Virus record (IMG/VR): IMGVR_UViG_3300050343_000185
Strand: one strand, 5' to 3'
DNA from: a virus
Length of the DNA stretch: 64,000 bases
How positions within the stretch are numbered: the first letter of the stretch is position 1; every line of letters begins with the position of its first letter. Shown here piece after piece: positions 5,452-40,839 of this stretch. Position numbers and translations under genes: made by a program. A model generated the notes under the pieces. The model searched no databases and was not told where the DNA came from. It worked only from the letters and a program-made list of their open reading frames with translations.

Positions 5452-6538
5452 TTTCCTCCTCCTCGGTTTGAACGTCAGCATCGATTTTATCATACAATTC
5501 AATGAAAGACTGCTTGGTCTCATCATCAAAACGATTTACACAGACCTTGATTGCCTTCATGCGATCACCCCAGATAGCATATGCTCGCATGATGTGGACC
5601 AGACGACGGGTAGAAATAACCTCATCGATACCACCATCAGCAAATGTCTTACGAATAATGTCAGCCCAGTTAGCAAGATTCTTACAGAAGTCTTCGTCAT
5701 GCTTACCTACAGATGCAGCAATACGAACAAGAATATTAGTTTCTACCGCAGGAGTAGGATACTCCTGCTCAAAGGTTAAAGCAAAACGCTCAAGAATGCT
5801 TCGTTGAGAACATTAGTGCCAATAAAACGACCATCATCAGAACCTTTACCTTTAGTGTTGGCAGTAGCAATGACATTGAAACCAGCAGCAGGTTTACATA
5901 ACGACCGGTCTTCTTCAAGAACACACCCTTACCTTCAAGGATGGACTGGAGACAAAGGATTTTATTAGAAGCAAGGTCAACTTCATCGAGTAGCAAGATT
6001 GCTCCACGTTCAAGTGCTTCAACGACAGGTCCGTTATGCCAAACAGTTGACCCATCGACAAGACGGAAACCACCAATAAGATCGTCTTCATCAGTTTCAA
6101 TAGTAATGTTTACACGAATAAGTTCACGTCCTAGAGCAGCACATGCTTGCTCCACAGAGAACGTTTTACCATTACCAGACAGACCAGTAATGAATGTAGG
6201 GTAGAAGATCTTAGACTTGAATGATTTTCTTTACGATCAGTGAAGTTACCGAACGGAACGAAGTTATCATCTTTATCGGGAACAAGGTTCTGTTCCTGGT
6301 TTTCAGAAACAGGAATACCAGCAGGTGCTTCGTAGGTTTGCTCTAGACGCTCTTGTACTGTCAAGTTCCAAGTGCCACGCTTGACATAGAAATCACGCAG
6401 ACGCTTGACCGCAGTAGGATAGGTGATACCAAAGTTATTACACGCAGCACGAACATGCTCGGCATTGATGTCATTGCCGTAGGTATCAGACAGATAAGAA
6501 GTAAGTTGTGTGGTGGTAAGGTCGGACTTGGCAGGCAT
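5432..6538 (-). CDS. cobS: CobS-like MoxR-family AAA+ ATPase (four compensating indels)
   Basis: Reconstructed: GLSGNGKT (Walker A), RVNITIETDEDDLIGG, LLLDEVD (Walker B), ATANTKG, NEAFLERF, ISTRRLVH. Two +1 bases near 6218-6236 and two -1 near 5895 and 5793 give net zero (1107 nt, 368 aa). Confidence 0.88.
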
Positions 6539-32731: not shown

Positions 32732-33274
32732 TCAGGGGATGAAATTGAAGTTAATTACAAATCGGGAATTGTGTGTGGGTTTACTGCTTGAGTGAAAACG
32801 TAAACCATCAAAGAAAACACACCGTCCCTTCTTTGGTGTGACATTGCTATTTATATCATATTCAGCAATCGGATCTCCGTACATTCTTTCACTAAAATAC
32901 GTATCACCATCACTATCATTTACATAATATAGACAGACCATATGTGGATCTGCTAAGTCAACATGCATAGAATCATATTCTTTATGTCTCACTCCAGGCG
33001 TCTGTAAAAAACATCTACCACGAATGACATTAGAAACACTGATTCCTGTATTATAACATGCCTCAAATAAGAGAGGCATAAACATTCCAGTATAACTGCT
33101 AGTAGATTTTCCGTCAAGTAAGAACATATGAGAAAATCCTGGTAGTTGACTCTCTCCATCTTCTGATAGATTGTCGTGGTAGACCCACCTAAAATCTGTA
33201 TCAACTCTCAATGTTTCGTGAATAAAATTTTGATAGTTTGGATTGATACAGTTGTCTTTAATAATGTTCTTCAT
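32732..33274 (-). CDS. 2OG-Fe(II) oxygenase
   Basis: MHVD, LYYVNDSDGDT, RFHSSS, RFVINFN. Confidence 0.82.
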   Translation of the reverse strand: MKNIIKDNCINPNYQNFIHETLRVDTDFRWVYHDNLSEDGESQLPGFSHMFLLDGKSTSSYTGMFMPLLFEACYNTGISVSNVIRGRCFLQTPGVRHKEYDSMHVDLADPHMVCLYYVNDSDGDTYFSERMYGDPIAEYDINSNVTPKKGRCVFFDGLRFHSSSKPTHNSRFVINFNFIP

Positions 33275-33863
33275 CAGGACCCTCCACGTTCCAAGTTAAG
33301 TTTCCAGATACTGTCACTCTCTCAAGTATGGTAGATTTGAAAGGATAGACAGCATGTTTAGTTGTAGATGGAAACATTAGTATAACACCGTTCCAGGACT
33401 TATCCACAGGTAACACTTCTGCTTCTAGTTGGAACGCACCATTGCTTCTATGTGTGTTTCTCTCTTCTTCACCATATGGTATATCGACAAAGATAACAAA
33501 ACTCACAATACCAGAATGTGTATGGATAGGATTGTATTCATTTTGTCTCTGATAATTTACCCATAGGTTTCTTAGTTTGATATATGGTGTAACATTATTT
33601 GTCTGTTGAAAATCCCACGGACAGGTTTCATATACCTCAGACCACAGTTGTGTCGAAAGATTAATAACATATTCTTCAAATTCAGGACACTCATACTTCC
33701 ATTCAGATAAACTTGACTGCTGTGCCAAGGCACCAGCTAGTCGCCCATTGTAATTCCAGGTTCTTTCTTGTCTACGTTTCTTTGTATAAGCATATAGATC
33801 TTTGTATACATTGTCTGGTATTTTCTCTGATATAAATGAGAGATTGCTTTGTTGATAAATCAT
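33258..33863 (-). CDS. Putative 2OG-Fe(II) oxygenase (HxH type)
   Basis: WVNYQRQNEYNPIHTH, MFPSTTKHAVYPF, RVTVSGN. Confidence 0.82.
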   Translation of the reverse strand: MIYQQSNLSFISEKIPDNVYKDLYAYTKKRRQERTWNYNGRLAGALAQQSSLSEWKYECPEFEEYVINLSTQLWSEVYETCPWDFQQTNNVTPYIKLRNLWVNYQRQNEYNPIHTHSGIVSFVIFVDIPYGEEERNTHRSNGAFQLEAEVLPVDKSWNGVILMFPSTTKHAVYPFKSTILERVTVSGNLTWNVEGPDEEHY

Positions 33864-34375
33864 GGATATAAATCAGCACTTATACTGTATCGTTTTTGAT
33901 CTTCCACTCCTTTACCTGGTGTATGTGGTAGATTGGATGGAAATATAAACCACGTCAGTAATTTATTGGGCAAGTAATATGGTTCTCTTTTCGGTATAGG
34001 AAACATTGTAGTTCCAGATGTACCTAATTTTACATACATTATACCAGACAATGTAAAAGGATTCTCTGGATTATGTGAATGCATGTATGGTTCTATTGGA
34101 TTGTTATTCCAATCTACATACACCCACGAACTTATATTGTAATCAAATATATCCATACCCCAAAACCTGGAACATGCATCATAGAAAGACCATTTTAAAT
34201 GTTTGATCATAGGTTCATCATGTTCTAAAAAATCATCCTTACCATCAGTAAAGGTAAGTTTAGATACATGATCCATATTTTTAGTAAGGGTATTATCTAC
34301 AATAGAAGTATCAATAAATTTTATAAGTTTATCTGCATCAATATCTACTGGATATCCCCTAATTGCTAATACCAT
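33860..34375 (-). CDS. Putative 2OG-Fe(II) oxygenase (HxH type)
   Basis: YMHSH, LSGIMYV, IFPSNLPHTP, RYSISAD. Confidence 0.75.
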   Translation of the reverse strand: MVLAIRGYPVDIDADKLIKFIDTSIVDNTLTKNMDHVSKLTFTDGKDDFLEHDEPMIKHLKWSFYDACSRFWGMDIFDYNISSWVYVDWNNNPIEPYMHSHNPENPFTLSGIMYVKLGTSGTTMFPIPKREPYYLPNKLLTWFIFPSNLPHTPGKGVEDQKRYSISADLYP

Positions 34376-34946
34376 TTTCTTGTAGTTTGTGAAATAATAT
34401 GTTCATGTATATCAGGATCACAGAAAGAAAAAGCAATCGTTGTCCTGATTTCATTTCCAATTAAACTATTGGGAGGTTGACCTTTGTGTAACCAGTTTGA
34501 CGGGATGAATACTCCTGTGTTAGGAACATAAGGTGTGAAATGATATTCATCATCAGGTGTCTGACATACAAATTCACCACCCCACTCTACATCCCAGTGT
34601 GGTTGATTAAAATAAATGAACGTCCACACACCATGCTCTTCCCAATCTTTATGGAAGATGGTATTCTGTCCTGCAGTTTGACCATTGACATGTATCTTAC
34701 ATAGTTTTATATCTCTACGTAGATACTTCATCATTTTTAATCTTACGTAGTAGCACACTTAGTAAAGATAAGATCAGTTCTTAGTGGATGCTGCCAAGAC
34801 ACAGGATCACCTTGACCATATGAAGCATTGTTGAATGTCCACGTAGCTAAACTATTCATGGATGGAGATCTGCGATTAAAATAATCCCAGAGAGTAATAC
34901 ACTCTGATTCTGGTAATACATTTTTAATAACAATAGGTTTATTCAT
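34366..34946 (-). CDS. 2OG-Fe(II) oxygenase (one apparent -1 indel near 34748)
   Basis: MNKPIVIKN... joins ...IFHKDW, WGGEF, WLHKG, RTTIAF. ATGA overlap at 34943-34946. Confidence 0.78.
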
Positions 34947-35506
34947 GTCCACCAAATCCAACCAGTAATAATATATTTTTCTTGTGTCTCTGATATCTGT
35001 CCTCTATGCTTGTGAGTAAGACCTGCTGGAAAGATAACAGTTTTACCTTTCTCTGCTTTGACAGTATAATCTTGGTAGTAAAATTCTGTACCACCATCAG
35101 GAACATCATTAAGATACGTGATATAGACAAACGCTCTATCACAACCTTCAAGACCAGATGCATCTACATGCCATGTATAGAATCCATCCCCAGGTTTGTA
35201 GTATTGAATCTGAGGCAATTGTTTCGCAACAAAAGATAAATTATCAATCTTTAGTGACTGCAAATATTCTTTTATAAAACTATCAACCTGGTTTTTATAC
35301 AAATCAAATTTATAGTCCTTTGCAGATCCACATGGAGCAGCCTCTTCAATAAAAAAATCTTTACTCTTTTTTATTTCAGGGACAATACTTCCCCCACCTA
35401 CACGACCAGCATAGGTTAACTCTTTCTCGTCAGCAACATGGAACAGGTCTATTAACTTATCACAAATAGATAAATCGTTTAATTTATACTCTTTAATAAA
35501 TTTCAT
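34943..35506 (-). CDS. 2OG-Fe(II) oxygenase (prolyl-4-hydroxylase-like)
   Basis: IQYYKPGDGFYTWHVD, YLNDVPDGGTEF, THKHRG, KYIITGW; true start MKFIKE. Confidence 0.88.
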   Translation of the reverse strand: MKFIKEYKLNDLSICDKLIDLFHVADEKELTYAGRVGGGSIVPEIKKSKDFFIEEAAPCGSAKDYKFDLYKNQVDSFIKEYLQSLKIDNLSFVAKQLPQIQYYKPGDGFYTWHVDASGLEGCDRAFVYITYLNDVPDGGTEFYYQDYTVKAEKGKTVIFPAGLTHKHRGQISETQEKYIITGWIWWT

Positions 35507-36072
35507 TTGTATGCTGGTCCTTGTATCCAACCCACCAAAGAATGTCTAACACCTGATGTAATTGGTTTTACTCTATGTGGAGTGTCTGCTTGAAATAATA
35601 TAATATCTCTCTTTTTCAATTCTATCACATTTTTTTCTGATGTACGAATTTCAAATTCACCACCCTCAAACTCATCGTTTAATAAAACAGTAAAACTTAT
35701 TTTACGAACTCTATTCTCTGGTCTTTTACCAGGACTCCAGTTTGATTCGTCAATGTGCCAATCATAAAAATCATCAACATCATACTTTGTTAGTTGAAAT
35801 GGTTCCATAAAATTTACATCTAGATTCCACTCACATTTTGAATTTGCAAATGCAACCAATCCATCCATTAATTCGTATACATTACTATCATCTACCCAAC
35901 AAACTTTAGAGCTTCTATCTGGATGATCTTCACTACTACTATACGTCTCACCATCCCATAGATCAGTTTTACCTTGATTGTATTTGTTATATGGTTTTAG
36001 TGCTTTTTCTAATAAAGGAAAAAAATCATCGTCAAGATGAACGATCATATATTGATGTTTAAATGAGTTCAT
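35503..36072 (-). CDS. 2OG-Fe(II) oxygenase (PKHD/P4H-like)
   Basis: QLTKY...YDWHID...RKISFTVLLN.EFEGGEF...PHRVKPITSGVRHSLVGW; true start MNSFKH. Confidence 0.9.
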   Translation of the reverse strand: MNSFKHQYMIVHLDDDFFPLLEKALKPYNKYNQGKTDLWDGETYSSSEDHPDRSSKVCWVDDSNVYELMDGLVAFANSKCEWNLDVNFMEPFQLTKYDVDDFYDWHIDESNWSPGKRPENRVRKISFTVLLNDEFEGGEFEIRTSEKNVIELKKRDIILFQADTPHRVKPITSGVRHSLVGWIQGPAYK

Positions 36073-37750
36073 TTTTTGTAAGTACCATAACATGAATACC
36101 GTTCCACCATCCATTAGGATCTTCTGGAATTTTGGTTAGAATCTTTCTCTCAAACAAAAGATTTAAGTTGTTCTCTTTTACAAAGAACTCTGCTGCCTGC
36201 ACAACACCCATAAAATTTGCATCGTCAATAACAAGAATAAACTTGTCCGCAAATGCGGGAATCAAAAATGTTAGATTATCATACTGAGATTGTGGATCAT
36301 GATCAGCATCATAAAAAATAACATTAGGTTGTTTGTGTATATTTTTTGGTGTCAAATCTTGAATTGATTTGGGACAGAAGTATTGTTTCTCTCTCAACCC
36401 ATTAAAGAATATTTTCTTTGGGTTATCAATCTCTACATTTACTTCATCTCTAAACGGAGAAATATCTTCTTCTGAATAATCATCAACAGCAAATGCTTCC
36501 ACATCTCTATTCATGGTAGCAGCAAAGAATGTACTACCAGCATGAACACCAAGTTCCATGTAGATAGCATCAGGTTTAGACAAAAGGTTGTTTAAGAAAT
36601 GCCTTACGATATTGGAAGACAATCCTGGATACTTATATCCTTCTTCTACAAACTCACTATCACATCTTGCTGCTTTTTCAATCGATGTTAGAACTAGTTC
36701 TATATCATCATCAAAATGTCTATCACTACGTTTCATTCTGGACTGGACAACTGAATCACAATAATTACATTTCCAACAATCAAAACCACATGTCTTGATC
36801 TTCTCTCTCCAGATGTCAATTGGTTTCTCTTCTAGAGCTACATCTTCAATGTAGTCATTAAACTGTGGGTGTAGTATCTCCTCGTCTGCCGCCCATCGTT
36901 TGATAATATCCATGCTTTCCATGAGACGCATTGCATTCTCTCTGCCATGCATCTTGAATACATCAATACCTAGATCAAGAAACTCTTCCCAATCTTTTTT
37001 CCAGGGTGGGATAGTTGCTGCTTTCAGTGATGCTGCAGGATCTCTTTCATCCCATGAAGAACAAGACACCCTACTTAAACTAGTATTAAAATACTGAGGG
37101 TCATCTTTTTCTCTCACCATATTGTAATGGTAATGTTCGGGCATGATAGGACAACCACCCCAACACCATTCATTGGCAAGTAAAGAAATTTTTACTGGTT
37201 TACCAATGTCAGCACAGTATTCTTTTGCTTCTTTAATCTTAAGTAGAGTATCTCTGTCACGCATAAGATCTCTGTCTAGATTGACATAGTGAAACCCTGC
37301 TTTTGCTAGGTTCACAATCTCATTAGGTCTGGTGACTTCTCTTAGTATAGTATTTTTAATAAACAGTTCAGGAAACTCTTTCTGCAACTGTCCTGTCAAG
37401 ACCCATGATGTATGAGGTAGAGTTACAATACGAACTCCTGCATCATATAGAAATCTAAAATTTTCAATAAAAATATCTAAGTTTTCTTGAGTAGGAGGAA
37501 CTTGAATATTATTAAATGTAGCAGACAAGGGAATGCCTGTCTCTTGGGAAACAAATAAAGCATTGAGAGAGGTATCTCTCATATCCCCATCAACAACATC
37601 ACCCATCGCATCTTGCACGAAAGGTGGCATACGACAGGTGAAATAGATATCATAAATGTAATCTTTGTATTCCTTAAGAAAAGGAATCAAAGTATTAACT
37701 ACAAAATCTTCTGGTAATTTGGTGTTAAGAGGGAGAGAAAATTTTGCCAT
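36059..37750 (-). CDS. U32-family Fe-S protein fused to a C-terminal class I SAM methyltransferase (Methyltransf_24-like)
   Basis: U32-like GFHYVNLDRDL, LLANEWCWGGCP, RVSC, GIDVFKMHGRE and CGFDCWKCNYC; MTase YMELGVHAGST, AVDD, IFYDADH, LVIDD. Confidence 0.72.
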   Translation of the reverse strand: MAKFSLPLNTKLPEDFVVNTLIPFLKEYKDYIYDIYFTCRMPPFVQDAMGDVVDGDMRDTSLNALFVSQETGIPLSATFNNIQVPPTQENLDIFIENFRFLYDAGVRIVTLPHTSWVLTGQLQKEFPELFIKNTILREVTRPNEIVNLAKAGFHYVNLDRDLMRDRDTLLKIKEAKEYCADIGKPVKISLLANEWCWGGCPIMPEHYHYNMVREKDDPQYFNTSLSRVSCSSWDERDPAASLKAATIPPWKKDWEEFLDLGIDVFKMHGRENAMRLMESMDIIKRWAADEEILHPQFNDYIEDVALEEKPIDIWREKIKTCGFDCWKCNYCDSVVQSRMKRSDRHFDDDIELVLTSIEKAARCDSEFVEEGYKYPGLSSNIVRHFLNNLLSKPDAIYMELGVHAGSTFFAATMNRDVEAFAVDDYSEEDISPFRDEVNVEIDNPKKIFFNGLREKQYFCPKSIQDLTPKNIHKQPNVIFYDADHDPQSQYDNLTFLIPAFADKFILVIDDANFMGVVQAAEFFVKENNLNLLFERKILTKIPEDPNGWWNGIHVMVLTKNELI

Positions 37751-37940
37751 AATCTACAATCACTTTTTCCATATACATGTGTTCTGCTTCTGGGTTTGTG
37801 TCCAGAATATACTTATTACTTTCCGCTAACTCCAAGAGTTTTTCGCGGTTAAGATCTTTTGTTTGGTCTACCCATTCATATCTACGAAGAATAGAGTGAT
37901 GGATTACAGGAACCAATTCAAGGTGTCTTTGACTCGACAT
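37725..37940 (-). CDS. Hypothetical protein (71 aa)
   Basis: Overlaps both neighbours in the operon. Confidence 0.6.
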   Translation of the reverse strand: MSSQRHLELVPVIHHSILRRYEWVDQTKDLNREKLLELAESNKYILDTNPEAEHMYMEKVIVDYGKIFSPS

Positions 37941-38760
37941 TGTTAGTTTGCTCTATTTGTAGTTGTCCTGAGTATTTATGTTGCTGTAGTTTAGGAAGCG
38001 CAATACCATCTTCCTGTAACTGTGCTTGGATCTGTGGTGCGATCATTTTATTAAGTTTATCAATACCACCACCAATCATACCAGAATATTTAACAGCAAC
38101 ACCAAGTGCTTCCACTTGATCTTCTTCTGGCATGTCCATGATTGTTGTCATGTTACCAGCACCAATTCTACCATACGATACAATATCCATTGCTGCTTGC
38201 TTACCCATACGAGCAACCCAATAAGTTCTTACTTCATGTGGTTGTTCTTCACAGTAATATTCAATGGGATTGTCCTCGTCAACATACTTGTCAATAATAT
38301 TTAAAAAATATTTTAACTCTAGTTCAGATTGTCTGAGTTTTCTTTTCCAAATACCAACATCATAATCATTTTTCTCCATGTCAATTTGCATCAACTCTTT
38401 ATCGAGTTCATCAGGAACTAACTCCATGTCCCTAATTAATCTCTTTCTTAAAATTTCTGCTTTTCTTAAACTGTTTCTATTTTCCATGTAGGCATGATAC
38501 CTAGTTTCAAGTTCCATCAGTGCTTGACGGACTTTTCTCCATGGAGTCAATTGAGGGTCAGCAACAAAGTGCTCACACTCATACTCTGTCATGCCACTAT
38601 TAAAGCGCATACTAGCAGACAGGATATCAAAATCTTTATTGGTTAGACCAAATTCATTTACGAAAGATTTTGATAAATGGATTTCGTTAGTATCAGAACT
38701 AACAATGTTTCTTACATCTGAAACAATATCAGATAAATTAGCGTCAGAATTTAAAGACAT
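37918..38760 (-). CDS. Conserved coiled-coil hypothetical protein (280 aa)
   Basis: True start MSLNSDAN; GMTEYECEHFV...TPWRKVRQALMEL, WVARMGKQAAMDI. Confidence 0.7.
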   Translation of the reverse strand: MSLNSDANLSDIVSDVRNIVSSDTNEIHLSKSFVNEFGLTNKDFDILSASMRFNSGMTEYECEHFVADPQLTPWRKVRQALMELETRYHAYMENRNSLRKAEILRKRLIRDMELVPDELDKELMQIDMEKNDYDVGIWKRKLRQSELELKYFLNIIDKYVDEDNPIEYYCEEQPHEVRTYWVARMGKQAAMDIVSYGRIGAGNMTTIMDMPEEDQVEALGVAVKYSGMIGGGIDKLNKMIAPQIQAQLQEDGIALPKLQQHKYSGQLQIEQTNNVESKTP

Positions 38761-39553
38761 ATGCGTCACACTCATATTCAGGTTTACGATCCCAATCAGT
38801 TTCAGAGACCGTTCTGCCCATTTCAATTGCTTGTTTTTGGGGCAAGAGGATACCGATGTAATCCTCGTATAATATATTTAGGTCCCATACAGAAGTGCAA
38901 TCTTCAAATTTTTTCACTAATGATTGATATGATACGAGCATAGTGGAAAGTTTATCTTCCCATTCTTCTGCTTTTACTAAAATTTTATTTGCTAATTCAT
39001 CTTTATTAATGTGTCTTTCCATAGAAAGATAATCTAGGAAAGGAGTTTTGTGTCCTTGTCCTCCTTTATATGTCAACCATTCTCTTGCTTCATGTTTTTG
39101 AATCTCCCAAGATGCAGATTCTAAATCTGTTGTGTTCTTGAGATTTCTAAATCTTGTATTGTACTCGTCTTCAATAATTTCTTTTGCAAAATCAACCATA
39201 AAATCCATAACATCTTTTAAAATGTTATCCGTCAATTCAATGGGCACTTTAAGAATTTCATTAGCAGGTGTCCAAGCAAATCCTGCTTCTCCTGTATTTA
39301 CAGCAACCTTACCAAAAGGTCTGATCTCAGAGAAAAAGTTAGATCCGTTATAAGCTTGTTGTTTAGTAACTTCCTTATACTTGTGTTCCCACTCTTTGTA
39401 GATGACTTGATAAATTGTTTCGCTAACTTCTACACACGAGAAGTGCATCAACGAAAACATTTCGTTGTAATGTAAGCGAAGATCTCCAGTTGCCGATGAA
39501 CTGACAAACTGCTCTTGCTTGATTTCCTTTTCGTTTATGATTAGATATCTCAT
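38744..39553 (-). CDS. Tail-fibre assembly chaperone-like protein (DUF4376-like C-terminus)
   Basis: ESASWEIQKHEAREWL...TPFLDYLSMERHINKDELANKILVKA resembles phage fibre chaperones; TAATG coupling to the upstream fibre gene. Confidence 0.55.
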   Translation of the reverse strand: MRYLIINEKEIKQEQFVSSSATGDLRLHYNEMFSLMHFSCVEVSETIYQVIYKEWEHKYKEVTKQQAYNGSNFFSEIRPFGKVAVNTGEAGFAWTPANEILKVPIELTDNILKDVMDFMVDFAKEIIEDEYNTRFRNLKNTTDLESASWEIQKHEAREWLTYKGGQGHKTPFLDYLSMERHINKDELANKILVKAEEWEDKLSTMLVSYQSLVKKFEDCTSVWDLNILYEDYIGILLPQKQAIEMGRTVSETDWDRKPEYECDAYVFKF

Positions 39554-40839
39554 TATTGTGCCTGAAGTGCGGTTACAGAAGCGGCACCAGAACAGCAACC
39601 GCCAGAAGATTGACCATAATGACCTTTGGGTCTTGTCGCAGCACCCATGTTGGTCTCAACGTCAGTAGTATAATCCCACTTGGTTGTGTGGTTGTTTTGT
39701 TGACCATCATATTGTCCCATCATATAACCCCAGTCCTGTCCCATCATGAAGTTTTCTTCACCGTAAGCACGGACTTTCGTTCCGTTTGCTAGACCAGCTC
39801 CACTTGAACCACTATACTTTGACCATGGTGATGTGACATTGTTTCCAGTACCAGCATAGAAATGACCGTACTTGGAAGGTAGGAACTTACAAACTCCATC
39901 AGGAGCAGCATTGGATGACCAACCAGACCAGGAATCATTTGAGTGATCTACAGAATATCTACTACCAGAGAAAGACGCCCAAGATTTTTCTTCATCTCCA
40001 CATGCAGCAGTATGATCACTACCAGAAGGTGAACTACCTACCTGATACATAATCTCGGAAGGATAATGTAGTTTACCTACAGCAGCGTTACCGCCACCTA
40101 AGTTATAACCAAACTGTTGTTTTTGTGCGGTAGCACATGCATTCCTGTCTCTACTGACAGGCATGTTCCAACCACCAACAACAGTGTATCCCATGACGCC
40201 TCTAGGGTCGTCACCTTCCCAACCATATGGGGAAGTTGGAGAGTAAGTACCACCACCAGGATTACTTCCTGTAGTACCAAACATTCTCCTCATACCTGTG
40301 TGTAGGTTGATGGAATCAGTATGACTGGATGCTCCCGTGAATGCATTAATGCAACCGTGAGCATAACCAAAGTAATCACTCCAGGTACAGTCAGCATAAG
40401 TTAGTGCTCTAGTTAACTGCTCACCACAATAGAATGTAATATCATTTGCGTGCCATGTTTTATTAACAGTTCTCCAAGGATTAGATCCTTTATACCCCGC
40501 CACCAGAAAACCATGTGTTATCAAACTCCTATATCTGAATCCTGTAAGAGGAGCAGATGCAACAGTTTGACCAGGATACGCCCAGAAAACACCGTTTTCA
40601 CCATCGGATACTAGATAAGATCCTCTAGTGATATTTGCAGGTTCGGGGATACCCCCACCAACCTCATCCCAGTCAGATCCATTCCAGATCTGTGCTTTGT
40701 TTTCATCGGTATTATAAATGATTTGACCGACGTTTGGGGATGCTGGTCTTCCCGCGTTGTTAAAAGATGGTAGTTTTAAACCTTGAGTGGTTAAACTAGC
40801 ATTTCCTGTAACAACTGTTCCAACAGTTAACTGAGACAT
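39553..40839 (-). CDS. Virion fibre-tip / receptor-binding protein with Kelch-like beta repeats
   Basis: N-terminal MSQLTVGTV and GQIIYNTDENKAQIWNG adaptor; aromatic-GG repeats; G/S/W/Y-rich. Confidence 0.65.
   Translation of the reverse strand: MSQLTVGTVVTGNASLTTQGLKLPSFNNAGRPASPNVGQIIYNTDENKAQIWNGSDWDEVGGGIPEPANITRGSYLVSDGENGVFWAYPGQTVASAPLTGFRYRSLITHGFLVAGYKGSNPWRTVNKTWHANDITFYCGEQLTRALTYADCTWSDYFGYAHGCINAFTGASSHTDSINLHTGMRRMFGTTGSNPGGGTYSPTSPYGWEGDDPRGVMGYTVVGGWNMPVSRDRNACATAQKQQFGYNLGGGNAAVGKLHYPSEIMYQVGSSPSGSDHTAACGDEEKSWASFSGSRYSVDHSNDSWSGWSSNAAPDGVCKFLPSKYGHFYAGTGNNVTSPWSKYSGSSGAGLANGTKVRAYGEENFMMGQDWGYMMGQYDGQQNNHTTKWDYTTDVETNMGAATRPKGHYGQSSGGCCSGAASVTALQAQ

What the first reader, a model, noticed from the sequence alone, without database searches (positions are those of the whole stretch)
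36059..37750. U32-type Fe-S hydroxylase fused to a SAM methyltransferase
Seen: the N-terminal ~335 aa carry U32-like motifs (NLDRDL, ANEWCWGGCP, RVSC, GIDVFKMHGRE) plus a Cx3Cx2Cx2C cluster. The C-terminal ~200 aa carry class I MTase motifs (ELGVHAGS, YDADH, VIDD). Established: characterised U32 proteins (RlhA, TrhP, UbiU/V) are 4Fe-4S, O2-independent hydroxylases rather than proteases, and TrhP products are further methylated to mo5U/cmo5U by separate enzymes. Inference: a one-polypeptide hydroxylate-then-methylate (methoxylating) enzyme. An O2-independent hydroxylase placed next to six O2-dependent ones in a phage of an oxygenic host is unexpected.
Basis: partly seen in the sequence, partly recalled or inferred. 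Interest (0 to 1): 0.8.

Follow-up and report, generated by a model that had tools for sequence, protein, structure and literature searches.

The report
Phage U32-like Fe-S domain fused to O-methyltransferase
A marine cyanophage gene joins a very divergent relative of the oxygen-independent "U32" iron-sulfur hydroxylases to an O-methyltransferase, and it belongs to a conserved, unstudied enzyme cassette next to tail-fibre genes that probably adds methoxy groups to an unknown target.

Summary
A 563-aa ORF lies at 36059-37750 on the minus strand, and every quoted motif is present. The fusion is not an assembly error: 117 isolate cyanomyovirus genomes (T4-GC 354) and 130+ metagenomic viral loci carry it.

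The N-terminal domain (aa 1-345) gets no Pfam U32 hit. It is nevertheless a remote U32 homologue:
- hhalign against U32 gives 97% probability, E 3e-11. An MTHFR control and shuffled controls score about 10-21, against 92 for U32.
- The best solved fold is the U32 protein Mk0906 (Z 16.7; next family 12.7).
- C196, C200 and C230 align with TrhP C170, C177 and C197.
- All seven conserved Cys are invariant in 96 distinct homologues.

The C-terminal domain (aa 367-563) matches COMT/TylF-type O-methyltransferases, including tRNA ho5U methylase TrmR (Z 13-15).

New here: other viral contigs encode the two halves as adjacent separate genes. They sit in a conserved cassette of fibre-type GC351 genes, GC353, GC352, optional 2OG oxygenase, rSAM-SPASM-like enzyme, U32-like, methyltransferase, an unknown gene and DUF401.

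Hydroxylate-then-O-methylate is therefore plausible (about 0.6). The substrate is unknown; I favour a cassette protein. The six 2OG neighbours are facultative. The scan noted the same fusion in other genomes.

The parts
36059..37750 (-). Whole ORF, 563 aa plus stop (cyanophage gene cluster T4-GC 354; phrog_1458)
36716..37750 (-). N-terminal domain aa 1-345: divergent U32-family TIM barrel plus C-terminal helical Cys-rich extension
   Evidence: AF2 pLDDT 93.7. VIA Z 16.7 to 5d88. hhalign 97.2%, E 2.9e-11 against U32.
37061..37165 (-). Cys triad C196-x3-C200-x29-C230. It aligns with TrhP C170, C177 and C197 and is the presumed Fe-S ligand set.
36758..36790 (-). Second invariant cluster C321-x3-C325-x2-C328-x2-C331, in helices after the barrel. 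It could be a second metal site or supply the fourth ligand.
36653..36715 (-). Interdomain linker, aa 346-366
   Evidence: Lower pLDDT blocks. This is the boundary between the separate genes in unfused loci.
36062..36652 (-). C-terminal class I SAM-dependent methyltransferase, COMT/TylF (Methyltransf_24-like) O-methyltransferase type, aa 367-563
   Evidence: Pfam PF13578 at 22.2 bits, below the cut-off. Fold Z 13-15 to O-methyltransferases including TrmR. Invariant G401, G405, D423, D481, D509, D510, N512.
37918..38826 (-). GC353-like helical protein of unknown family, a conserved partner gene. Its real start is probably the ATG at 38775.
38744..39598 (-). GC352-like protein of unknown family, a conserved partner gene
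39553..40839 (-). GC351-like fibre-type protein ('sericin-like' in P-SSM4 and P-HM2). Its N-terminus is shared with other fibre-region proteins. It heads the cassette and is a candidate substrate.
32732..36114 (-). Six tandem 2OG-Fe(II) oxygenase genes directly downstream, a facultative part of the cassette

Best explanation
The ORF is a genuine, widely conserved cyanomyovirus gene (T4-GC 354). It fuses two enzymes that other viruses encode as adjacent genes.

Domain 1 (aa 1-345) is a very divergent member of the U32 superfamily, to which the O2-independent, prephenate-dependent hydroxylases TrhP, RlhA and UbiU/V belong. I infer that it carries at least one Fe-S cluster on C196, C200 and C230. 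The fourth ligand, or a second metal site, would come from the invariant C321/C325/C328/C331 cluster.

Domain 2 (aa 367-563) is a SAM-dependent O-methyltransferase of the COMT/TylF type, probably metal-assisted.

The most likely mechanism is two consecutive steps on one substrate. Domain 1 hydroxylates an sp2 carbon of an aromatic or heteroaromatic ring (C-H to C-OH). Domain 2 then methylates the new hydroxyl (C-OH to C-OCH3), giving a net methoxylation.

The gene belongs to a conserved cassette headed by fibre-type GC351 genes and two helical proteins (GC352, GC353). In fuller versions the cassette also holds an rSAM-SPASM-like enzyme, 2OG oxygenases and a DUF401 membrane protein. I therefore favour a post-translational modification of a cassette protein, the fibre-type GC351 protein, as its role.

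Shown here: the fusion, the remote homology, the folds, the residue conservation and the cassette. Inferred: metal binding, hydroxylase chemistry, the order of the steps and, least certain, the substrate.

My odds: U32 homology 0.9; Fe-S binding 0.75; O-methyltransferase 0.7; coupled hydroxylation-methylation 0.6; protein substrate about 0.3 overall.
For: Homology of the N domain:
- hhalign of the family profile (57 sequences) against 16 diverse U32 proteins gives probability 97.2%, E 2.9e-11 over 225 columns.
- The same result holds with only the 12 non-E. coli U32s (score 90.9).
- Reversed and column-shuffled controls score 9-16. MTHFR, the second-best fold, scores 21.4.
- In the fold search, U32 protein Mk0906 (5d88) is best at Z 16.7, rmsd 3.1 A, 225 of 247 residues. 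The next family is at Z 12.7. A bona fide U32 Atlas cluster gives TM 0.75 over 306 residues.
- The nearest Atlas clusters carry PF01136 on 20% of members or are auto-named 'Peptidase U32 (Fragment)'.
- Aligned residues: C196=TrhP C170 and C200=C177, both essential in TrhP (PMC6599085). Also C230=C197, R160=R142, K266/G269/R270 = the K-x-x-G-R motif at 287/290/291, G105=G89 and P127=P109.
- U32 Cys motifs bind 4Fe-4S clusters (PMC6747719). Prephenate is the O donor (PMC10990095).
- The seven Cys are invariant in 96 homologues.

C domain: the best solved folds are all O-methyltransferases, namely 8c9v (Z 15.0), TrmR 5zw3 (14.7), TomG, SpnH, MeT1, COMT and NovP.

Coupling of the two halves:
- In 9 of 11 unfused viral loci a separate homologue of the C domain lies next to the U32-like gene. 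That homologue passes Pfam Methyltransf_24 (35.9 bits).
- In bacterial MAG locus L010 the U32-like gene sits in a tight operon with an unrelated Methyltransf_2 O-methyltransferase.
- In locus L028 it lies among sulfotransferase and PAPS-synthesis genes, another way of decorating a hydroxyl.
- Precedent: the B. subtilis trmR-trhP2-trhP1 operon pairs a COMT-like methyltransferase with U32 proteins to make mo5U34 (PMC6599085).

Cassette:
- GC351-GC352-GC353-GC354 synteny holds in the window, P-SSM4 and P-HM2.
- GC353 lies upstream in 50 of 60 and 39 of 39 loci.
- The fusion and GC353 each occur in 117 cyanophage records with the same organism breakdown.
- GC353- and GC352-like genes flank the U32-like gene in Ralstonia phage RP12 (GC353-like only), a 6.4-Mb bacterial chromosome and a Bacteroidota MAG.
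- GC351-like genes in 1-3 tandem copies precede the unfused cassette as well.
- The accessory rSAM has a C-terminal Cys pattern that I read as SPASM-like, and P4H-type 2OG oxygenases are typical protein modifiers.
Against: - No Pfam, NCBIfam or PDB sequence hit links the N domain to U32. Ten distant relatives also have no Pfam hit.
- The canonical CX6CX15CX3/4C spacing is replaced by CX3CX29C. The third canonical Cys is Ser226, and TrhP's essential E162 aligns with Ser189.
- No direct hydroxylase activity has been shown in vitro, even for TrhP and RlhA (PMC10990095).
- The O-methyltransferase fold matches are tied within about 2 Z units, so they say nothing on substrate.
- The protein is acidic (pI 4.85), and there is no biochemical evidence for any substrate.
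- The protein-substrate idea rests on gene neighbourhood only. GC352 and GC353 have no recognisable family.
- No U32 enzyme is known to act on a protein.
Confidence: 0.45

Rival explanations
1. Same two-step chemistry, but on RNA or DNA. The enzyme would be a single-chain analogue of TrhP plus TrmR that makes 5-methoxy-pyrimidine. The target could be mo5U34 in host or phage tRNA, an rRNA base, or a pyrimidine in phage DNA.
For: The only characterised pairing of a U32 protein with a COMT-like O-methyltransferase is the B. subtilis trmR-trhP2-trhP1 operon for mo5U34 (PMC6599085). TrmR is among the top fold matches of the C domain (Z 14.7). Two of the three characterised U32 functions are C5 hydroxylation of pyrimidines in RNA. 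A weak U32 hit lies near nucleotide-sugar genes in phage RB69 (PMC1524935).
Against: The TrhP C-terminal domain (PF16325) is absent. The protein is strongly acidic (pI 4.85; C domain 4.56). The window holds no tRNA gene. The gene always sits in a fibre-gene cassette with GC351/352/353, not with nucleotide-metabolism or tRNA genes. The TrmR match is tied with many small-molecule and sugar O-methyltransferases.
Confidence: 0.12
2. Same two-step chemistry on a small molecule. The target would be a phenolic, quinone-type or sugar-linked metabolite, as with UbiU/V plus UbiG in anaerobic ubiquinone synthesis. The DUF401 permease-like protein would move a substrate or product.
For: UbiU/V hydroxylate a quinol ring that is then O-methylated (PMC6747719 and PMC10990095). 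The top fold hits of the C domain are small-molecule and sugar O-methyltransferases. Unfused cassettes and RP12 carry a DUF401/CitMHS-like membrane protein. L010 pairs the U32-like gene with a solute-binding protein and a Methyltransf_2 O-methyltransferase. L028 places it among sulfation genes.
Against: The window and most fused cyanophage loci lack DUF401. No lipid-carrier (UbiT/SCP2-like) or other biosynthetic gene is present. The cassette consistently follows fibre-type structural genes.
Confidence: 0.18
3. The N domain is not a hydroxylase. It would be a metal-binding (Fe-S or Zn) scaffold, an electron-transfer module, a peptidase or an assembly factor for fibre proteins. The methyltransferase would then act on its own on a pre-existing hydroxyl, carboxyl or amine.
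For: The domain is too divergent for Pfam. It lacks the canonical fourth Cys position and TrhP's essential Glu at the aligned site. U32 proteins were first described as peptidases, and in-vitro hydroxylation has not been shown for any of them (PMC10990095). 2OG oxygenases in the cassette could supply the hydroxyl groups instead.
Against: The residues shared with U32 include those essential for TrhP function (C170, C177) and the K-x-x-G-R and R142 positions. The 2OG oxygenases are absent from about half of the loci that keep the fusion. Repeated pairing with hydroxyl-decorating enzymes fits the making of a hydroxyl group.
Confidence: 0.24
4. The fusion is an artefact: two genes joined by an assembly or sequencing error.
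For: Separate-gene versions exist in other viral contigs.
Against: The same 550-580-aa reading frame is found in 117 independently sequenced isolate genomes and in 130+ metagenomic loci. 96 distinct full-length sequences keep the catalytic residues of both halves.
Confidence: 0.01

Closest known systems
Peptidase U32 family (PF01136): TrhP/YegQ, RlhA, UbiU/UbiV; solved fold Mk0906 (PDB 5d88)
   Same: TIM-barrel fold (Z 16.7). Profile-profile homology over about 225 residues. Shared R142, K-x-x-G-R, G89 and P109 positions. Three of the four Fe-S Cys positions align, including the two shown to be essential in TrhP.
   Different: It is not detected by the Pfam model. The Cys spacing is CX3CX29C instead of CX6CX15CX3/4C, and the third Cys is Ser. 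TrhP E162 aligns with Ser. It has an extra invariant CX3CX2CX2C cluster after the barrel. It lacks the U32 C-terminal domains. It is mainly viral and is fused or adjacent to a methyltransferase.
B. subtilis trmR(yrrM)-trhP2(yrrN)-trhP1(yrrO) operon (tRNA mo5U34 synthesis)
   Same: It pairs a U32 protein with a COMT-like SAM O-methyltransferase to turn C-H into C-OCH3. TrmR is a top fold match of the C domain (Z 14.7).
   Different: The phage genes are fused or adjacent in a cassette with fibre-type genes. There is no TrhP C-terminal domain, the protein is acidic, there is no link to tRNA genes, and no sequence-level match to TrmR.
UbiU/UbiV plus UbiG (O2-independent ubiquinone biosynthesis)
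   Same: Fe-S U32 hydroxylation of an aromatic ring is followed by SAM-dependent O-methylation, with helper proteins of non-enzymatic type (UbiT there, GC352/GC353 here by analogy only).
   Different: There is no SCP2 protein and no heterodimer of two U32 paralogues. The methyltransferase subfamily is different, and the context is viral structural genes.
Methyltransf_24 / TylF / COMT-CCoAOMT class I O-methyltransferases (e.g. SpnH, NovP, TomG, MeT1, 8c9v)
   Same: Fold (Z 13-15). Motif I G-x-G-x-G region, an acidic residue after strand 2 (D423), and D481/D509/D510/N512 at the positions of the metal and catalytic residues.
   Different: Below the Pfam gathering score (22.2 against 26.3 bits). 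No PDB hit by sequence profile. Fused to a U32-like domain.

Membership tests
Peptidase U32 (PF01136) superfamily | Match to the Pfam PF01136 model above its gathering score | tested here: not met
   No PF01136 hit even at E<=1 for this protein, and none for 10 distant relatives. Only 20% of members of the nearest Atlas clusters carry it.
Peptidase U32 (PF01136) superfamily | Significant and specific profile-profile homology to bona fide U32 proteins | tested here: met
   hhalign probability 97.2%, E 2.9e-11, 225 columns. An independent 12-sequence U32 profile scores 90.9. The MTHFR control scores 21.4, and reversed or shuffled controls score 9-16.
Peptidase U32 (PF01136) superfamily | TIM-barrel fold of the solved U32 protein Mk0906 | tested here: met
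   VIA-align Z 16.7, rmsd 3.1 A, 225 of 247 residues. The next family is at Z 12.7. Foldseek TM 0.64. An Atlas U32 cluster gives TM 0.75.
Peptidase U32 (PF01136) superfamily | Four conserved Cys in a CX6CX15CX3/4C pattern that bind a 4Fe-4S cluster (PMC6747719) | tested here: inconclusive
   C196, C200 and C230 align with TrhP C170, C177 and C197, but the spacing is CX3CX29C and the third position is Ser226. Four more invariant Cys at 321-331 could supply a ligand. UbiU and UbiV also depart from the consensus. Metal binding was not testable.
Peptidase U32 (PF01136) superfamily | The Glu essential in TrhP (E162), and the R142 and K-x-x-G-R motif positions | tested here: inconclusive
   R160=R142 and K266/G269/R270=K287/G290/R291 are conserved. 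E162 aligns with Ser189, while an invariant Glu (E194) sits two residues before C196.
Peptidase U32 (PF01136) superfamily | O2-independent, prephenate-dependent hydroxylase activity | not testable with these tools
   Needs biochemistry or genetics.
Class I SAM-dependent O-methyltransferases (Methyltransf_24 / COMT-TylF type) | Pfam PF13578 above its gathering score | tested here: not met
   22.2 bits against a cut-off of 26.3, E 2.8e-4, aa 399-510. The separate-gene homologue in L126 passes (35.9 bits).
Class I SAM-dependent O-methyltransferases (Methyltransf_24 / COMT-TylF type) | Rossmann-like methyltransferase fold closest to O-methyltransferases | tested here: met
   The top 50 second-look matches for aa 367-563 are almost all O-methyltransferases, at Z 13.1-15.0 and rmsd about 3 A.
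Class I SAM-dependent O-methyltransferases (Methyltransf_24 / COMT-TylF type) | SAM-binding motif I, the acidic residue after strand 2, and acidic/Asn metal-catalytic residues | tested here: inconclusive
   G401, G405, D423, D481, D509, D510 and N512 are invariant in 96 homologues. I assigned their roles from motif position, not from a residue-level structural superposition.
TrhP/TrmR tRNA mo5U34 pathway | TrhP-type C-terminal domain (PF16325) and specific similarity to TrmR | tested here: not met
   No PF16325 hit. The TrmR fold match (Z 14.7) is tied with many other O-methyltransferases. There is no sequence-level hit to any PDB chain.
Radical SAM superfamily (as a reading of the N domain) | CX3CX2C motif in the loop after the first strand; PF04055 match | tested here: not met
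   No PF04055 hit. The only CX3CX2C lies at 321-328, after the barrel. One Atlas rSAM cluster matched at TM 0.75. I suspect an rSAM/U32-like fusion there, since rSAM genes abut U32-like genes, but I did not check this.

The most novel reading that the evidence does not exclude
The cassette is a phage-encoded protein-maturation system. Its parts would be an rSAM-SPASM-like enzyme, P4H-type 2OG oxygenases, a U32-like O2-independent hydroxylase and an O-methyltransferase, together with the helper proteins GC352 and GC353. It would install methoxy groups (and other modifications) on aromatic residues of the receptor-binding fibre-type protein GC351. That would be the first protein substrate for a U32 enzyme, the first viral U32 hydroxylase, and a new way for phages to chemically tune host recognition.
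Probability: 0.2. Interest if true: 0.85.

Novelty: new variant of a known kind. Interest (0 to 1): 0.66.

Why it matters
U32 proteins are a recently recognised class of oxygen-independent hydroxylases that take their oxygen atom from prephenate. Most of the twelve described subfamilies have no known function, and the family is described as almost exclusively bacterial and archaeal (PMC10990095).

This finding adds a mainly viral, highly divergent branch that standard domain models miss. It is abundant in marine cyanomyoviruses: 117 isolate genomes and about 500 relatives confirmed in each of two capped scans of viral contigs. The gene fusion, together with the split-gene versions, gives a built-in clue to the chemistry, namely that an O-methyltransferase acts next.

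The conserved cassette offers a concrete system to test, and its core can be expressed as a few genes. It consists of fibre-type genes, two unknown helper proteins, and optional rSAM, 2OG oxygenases and a DUF401 membrane protein.

If the target is a fibre protein, this would be a new kind of virion modification bearing on host range in globally important phage-host pairs. If the target is a nucleic acid or a quinone, the enzyme would be a new auxiliary metabolic function.

Tried and rejected
Sequence searches that found nothing for the N domain:
- Pfam, NCBIfam and PDB (single sequence and profile) gave no hit.
- hhalign of the family profile against single UbiU or UbiV sequences was insignificant. 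With an 8-sequence U32 alignment it was only suggestive (81%).
- A word-index homologue search seeded with TrhP returned only >83% identical orthologues and was useless for profile building. I built the U32 set from four genomes instead.
- The search for related loci with the full 57-sequence alignment failed for lack of a conserved stretch.
- PF01136 found nothing in the nearest held viral record, G001, which is only 15.6 kb. The window's own assembly is not held.

Searches on the other cassette genes:
- The C-domain profile against PDB gave only chance hits.
- GC351, GC352 and GC353 profiles show no similarity to U32, the N domain or the methyltransferase. They have no Pfam family even at E<=1.
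- The Atlas feature search for GC353 found nothing usable.
- The rSAM profile against PDB gave only a generic rSAM core hit.

Readings I rejected:
- Radical-SAM reading of the N domain: see the membership test.
- tRNA link: no tRNA gene in the window.
- T4-type late promoter TATAAATA: 3 matches against 5 expected, and none directly upstream of the ORF.

Things that could not be done:
- Cys-Cys distances in the model could not be measured, because coordinates are not exposed to the script box.
Full report
**1. The observation**

The window encodes a 563-aa ATG-to-stop ORF at 36059-37750 on the minus strand. The plus strand of the interval is closed. The region is the structural module of a T4-like cyanomyovirus. 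The gp13-, gp14- and gp15-like genes lie downstream. Giant fibre genes lie upstream. Six 2OG-Fe(II) oxygenase genes sit directly 3' of the ORF. Nearest DNA relatives are Synechococcus phages.

**2. The fusion is real and common**

- tblastn finds the full-length protein (50-55% identity) in 117 isolate cyanophage genomes, always annotated 'hypothetical protein'. In P-SSM4 and P-HM2 it is gene cluster T4-GC 354.
- PHROGs holds it as phrog_1458, function unknown.
77 of the best 80 loci, and 55 of 67 in a more diverse set, carry the fused frame.
- In 96 distinct full-length sequences (43-100% identity), seven Cys (196, 200, 230, 321, 325, 328, 331) are invariant, while the other four Cys vary. 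Key residues of both halves are also invariant.

**3. The N-terminal domain (aa 1-345)**

Pfam, NCBIfam and PDB sequence searches see nothing. An exhaustive search of 1.8 billion representatives finds 287 relatives. Many are stand-alone proteins of 330-380 aa, and the ten relatives I scanned with Pfam had no family.

AlphaFold2 gives a confident alpha/beta barrel followed by helices (pLDDT 93.7, pTM 0.92).

- Fold search: an all-against-representatives search puts the U32 protein Mk0906 (5d88) first at Z 16.7 (rmsd 3.1 A, 225 of 247 residues). That is four units above generic TIM barrels (Z <= 12.7). Foldseek agrees on TM-score.
- Profile comparison: I built a U32 profile from E. coli TrhP, UbiU, UbiV and RlhA plus 12 U32 genes from three bacterial genomes. 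hhalign against the family profile gives 97.2% probability, E 2.9e-11 over 225 columns. Using only the 12 non-E. coli sequences gives the same (score 90.9).
- Controls: reversed and shuffled alignments score 9-16. MTHFR, the second-best fold, scores 21.4.
- Aligned residues: C196=TrhP C170 and C200=C177, both essential in TrhP (PMC6599085). Also C230=C197, R160=R142, K266/G269/R270 = the K-x-x-G-R motif, G105=G89 and P127=P109.
- Independent leads: the ESM Atlas places the domain beside clusters that carry PF01136 on 20% of members, or that are auto-named 'Peptidase U32 (Fragment)'. A bona fide U32 cluster matches at TM 0.75.

The differences are real. The Cys spacing is CX3CX29C, against CX6CX15CX3/4C in most U32 proteins (PMC6747719). 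The third canonical Cys is Ser226. TrhP E162 aligns with Ser189, although an invariant Glu (E194) lies next to C196. A second invariant CX3CX2CX2C cluster follows the barrel.

I could not measure Cys geometry, because model coordinates are not exposed. I conclude that this is a divergent branch of the U32 superfamily and not a Pfam-defined member.

**4. The C-terminal domain (aa 367-563)**

Pfam gives only a sub-threshold Methyltransf_24 hit. A second-look structural alignment lists almost only O-methyltransferases at Z 13-15. They include a Desulfuromonas O-methyltransferase, B. subtilis TrmR (the tRNA ho5U-to-mo5U enzyme), TomG, SpnH, MeT1, COMT and NovP. Motif I glycines, the acidic residue after strand 2, and D481/D509/D510/N512 are invariant.

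**5. Coupling of the two halves**

The decisive new result is a Rosetta-stone relation. In 11 unfused viral loci, 9 have a separate 221-251-aa gene homologous to the C domain (E 1e-22 to 1e-50). It lies immediately after the U32-like gene, usually overlapping it. That gene passes Pfam Methyltransf_24.

Two further contexts point the same way:
- In bacterial MAG locus L010, a stand-alone homologue sits in a tight operon with a solute-binding protein and an unrelated Methyltransf_2 O-methyltransferase.
- In L028 it lies among sulfotransferase and PAPS-synthesis genes.

Three different hydroxyl-decorating partners fit an enzyme that makes a hydroxyl group. The only characterised pairing of these two enzyme classes is the B. 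subtilis trmR-trhP2-trhP1 operon (PMC6599085).

**6. The cassette**

Upstream of the ORF lie GC353-like (37918-38826), GC352-like (38744-39598) and GC351-like (39553-40839) genes. The same order holds in P-SSM4 and P-HM2, whose downstream genes differ.

- GC353 is upstream in 50 of 60 and 39 of 39 loci with enough flank. GC352 is upstream in 46 of 53 and 24 of 39.
- In the isolate database, the fusion and GC353 each occur in 117 cyanophage records with the same breakdown by organism name. GC352 occurs in 112.
- Homologues of GC353 and GC352 also flank the U32-like gene in a 6.4-Mb bacterial chromosome, a Bacteroidota MAG and a metagenomic contig. Ralstonia jumbo phage RP12 has a GC353 homologue (ORF140).

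The fuller viral version reads: GC351-like (1-3 tandem copies), GC353, GC352, an optional 2OG-FeII_Oxy_5 oxygenase, a 335-aa radical SAM enzyme, U32-like, methyltransferase, an unknown protein of about 300 aa, and DUF401. The radical SAM enzyme has a C-terminal CX2CX6CX3CX2C pattern that I read as SPASM-like.

The window has no rSAM or DUF401 gene. The six 2OG genes are facultative (29 of 63 loci), but they are not foreign to the cassette.

**7. Mechanism and substrate**

The best-supported reading is consecutive hydroxylation and O-methylation of an aromatic or heteroaromatic carbon.

For the substrate I favour a cassette protein, the fibre-type GC351. The cassette always follows such genes, and its optional enzymes are typical protein modifiers (rSAM with a SPASM-like tail, P4H-type 2OG oxygenases). 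This is neighbourhood evidence only.

- A nucleic-acid target (mo5U-like) is weakened by several points. The TrhP C-terminal domain is absent. The pI is acidic (4.85). The window has no tRNA gene. The cassette lies among structural genes.
- A small-molecule target remains open, and the DUF401 permease-like partner speaks for it.

**8. Novelty**

Full-text searches found no paper describing a cyanophage U32-like protein. A 2006 genome paper lists a weak U32 hit in coliphage RB69 (PMC1524935). Automatic names such as 'Peptidase U32 (Fragment)' and 'Methyltransferase family protein' exist in the Atlas.

The scan's first readers flagged the same fusion in at least six windows of other genomes; none was marked as followed up. 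I rate it a new variant of a known kind: a viral U32-like branch, its fused and split methyltransferase partner, and a conserved uncharacterised cassette.

**9. Not obtained**

- Metal-site geometry.

Noticed in passing
window 37918-40839 (minus); also L126, L152, L158, L165, L030, L011, L032, L001: GC352-like and GC353-like proteins are two conserved families with no Pfam or PHROG function. They travel with the U32-like gene in cyanophages, other viral contigs and two bacterial genomes; Ralstonia phage RP12 has a GC353 homologue. GC353 has invariant motifs such as F-V, Y-W, G-R and G-N spread along a helical protein.
   Followed up: partly
L126:4989-5993, L152:2506-3516, L165:4982-5986, L143:667-1671, L011:4990-5997: A 335-aa radical SAM enzyme directly precedes, and overlaps, the unfused U32-like gene. 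It has an N-terminal CX3CX2C and a C-terminal CX2CX6CX3CX2C pattern that I read as SPASM-like. It is absent from the window.
   Followed up: partly
L001:7019-8059 (RP12 ORF138), L030:6071-7180, L126:8676-9719: A DUF401/CitMHS-like membrane protein follows the U32-like gene in RP12, in a bacterial chromosome and in 7 of 8 unfused viral loci. It also follows in 13 of 50 fused loci. Its role is unknown; it may transport a substrate.
   Followed up: partly
L010:5995-11516: A bacterial MAG operon reads: U32-like, SBP_bac_5 solute-binding protein, Methyltransf_2 O-methyltransferase, histidine kinase. The gaps are 7-41 nt.
   Followed up: partly
L028:743-8953: A stand-alone U32-like gene is embedded among Sulfotransfer_3, TauE, PAPS_reduct and CysN/APS-kinase genes. 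This suggests hydroxylation followed by O-sulfation.
   Followed up: no
L026:6001-7689 (P-SSM4 PSSM4_035): The deposited P-SSM4 CDS starts at locus position 6124 (521 aa), but homology to the window protein begins at 6001. The annotated start is probably about 40 codons too late. phrog_1458 likewise aligns only from residue 49.
   Followed up: partly
window 37725-37940 (minus): A 71-aa ORF with no family hit fills the gap between GC353 and the fusion and overlaps the fusion's start by 26 nt. It may or may not be a gene.
   Followed up: no
window 35503-36114 (minus): The first 2OG oxygenase ORF, as listed, overlaps the 3' end of the fusion by 56 nt. Its true start may be further in.
   Followed up: no
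window 39553-40839 (minus) and L026/L027: The first ~65 residues of GC351 are shared with several other fibre-region proteins (T4-GC 349, 350, 356, 514, 585). They look like a common attachment module for exchangeable fibre-type proteins.
   Followed up: partly
BFVD A0A3G3MCS7 (Escherichia phage OLB35 'Peptidase'); RB69ORF050c (PMC1524935): T-even coliphages carry a 269-aa U32-like protein (TM 0.78 to the model, 20% identity). In RB69 the weak U32 hit lies near weak Pfam hits for thymidylate synthase, nucleotidyl transferase and a SIS domain. This could be another phage use of the U32 fold.
   Followed up: no
Atlas cluster 'Radical SAM domain protein', 622 aa, Acidobacteriota (row 7): This cluster matched the N-domain model at TM 0.75 over 301 residues. 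It may be an rSAM/U32-like fusion, which would be a second Rosetta-stone link, but I did not check it.
   Followed up: no
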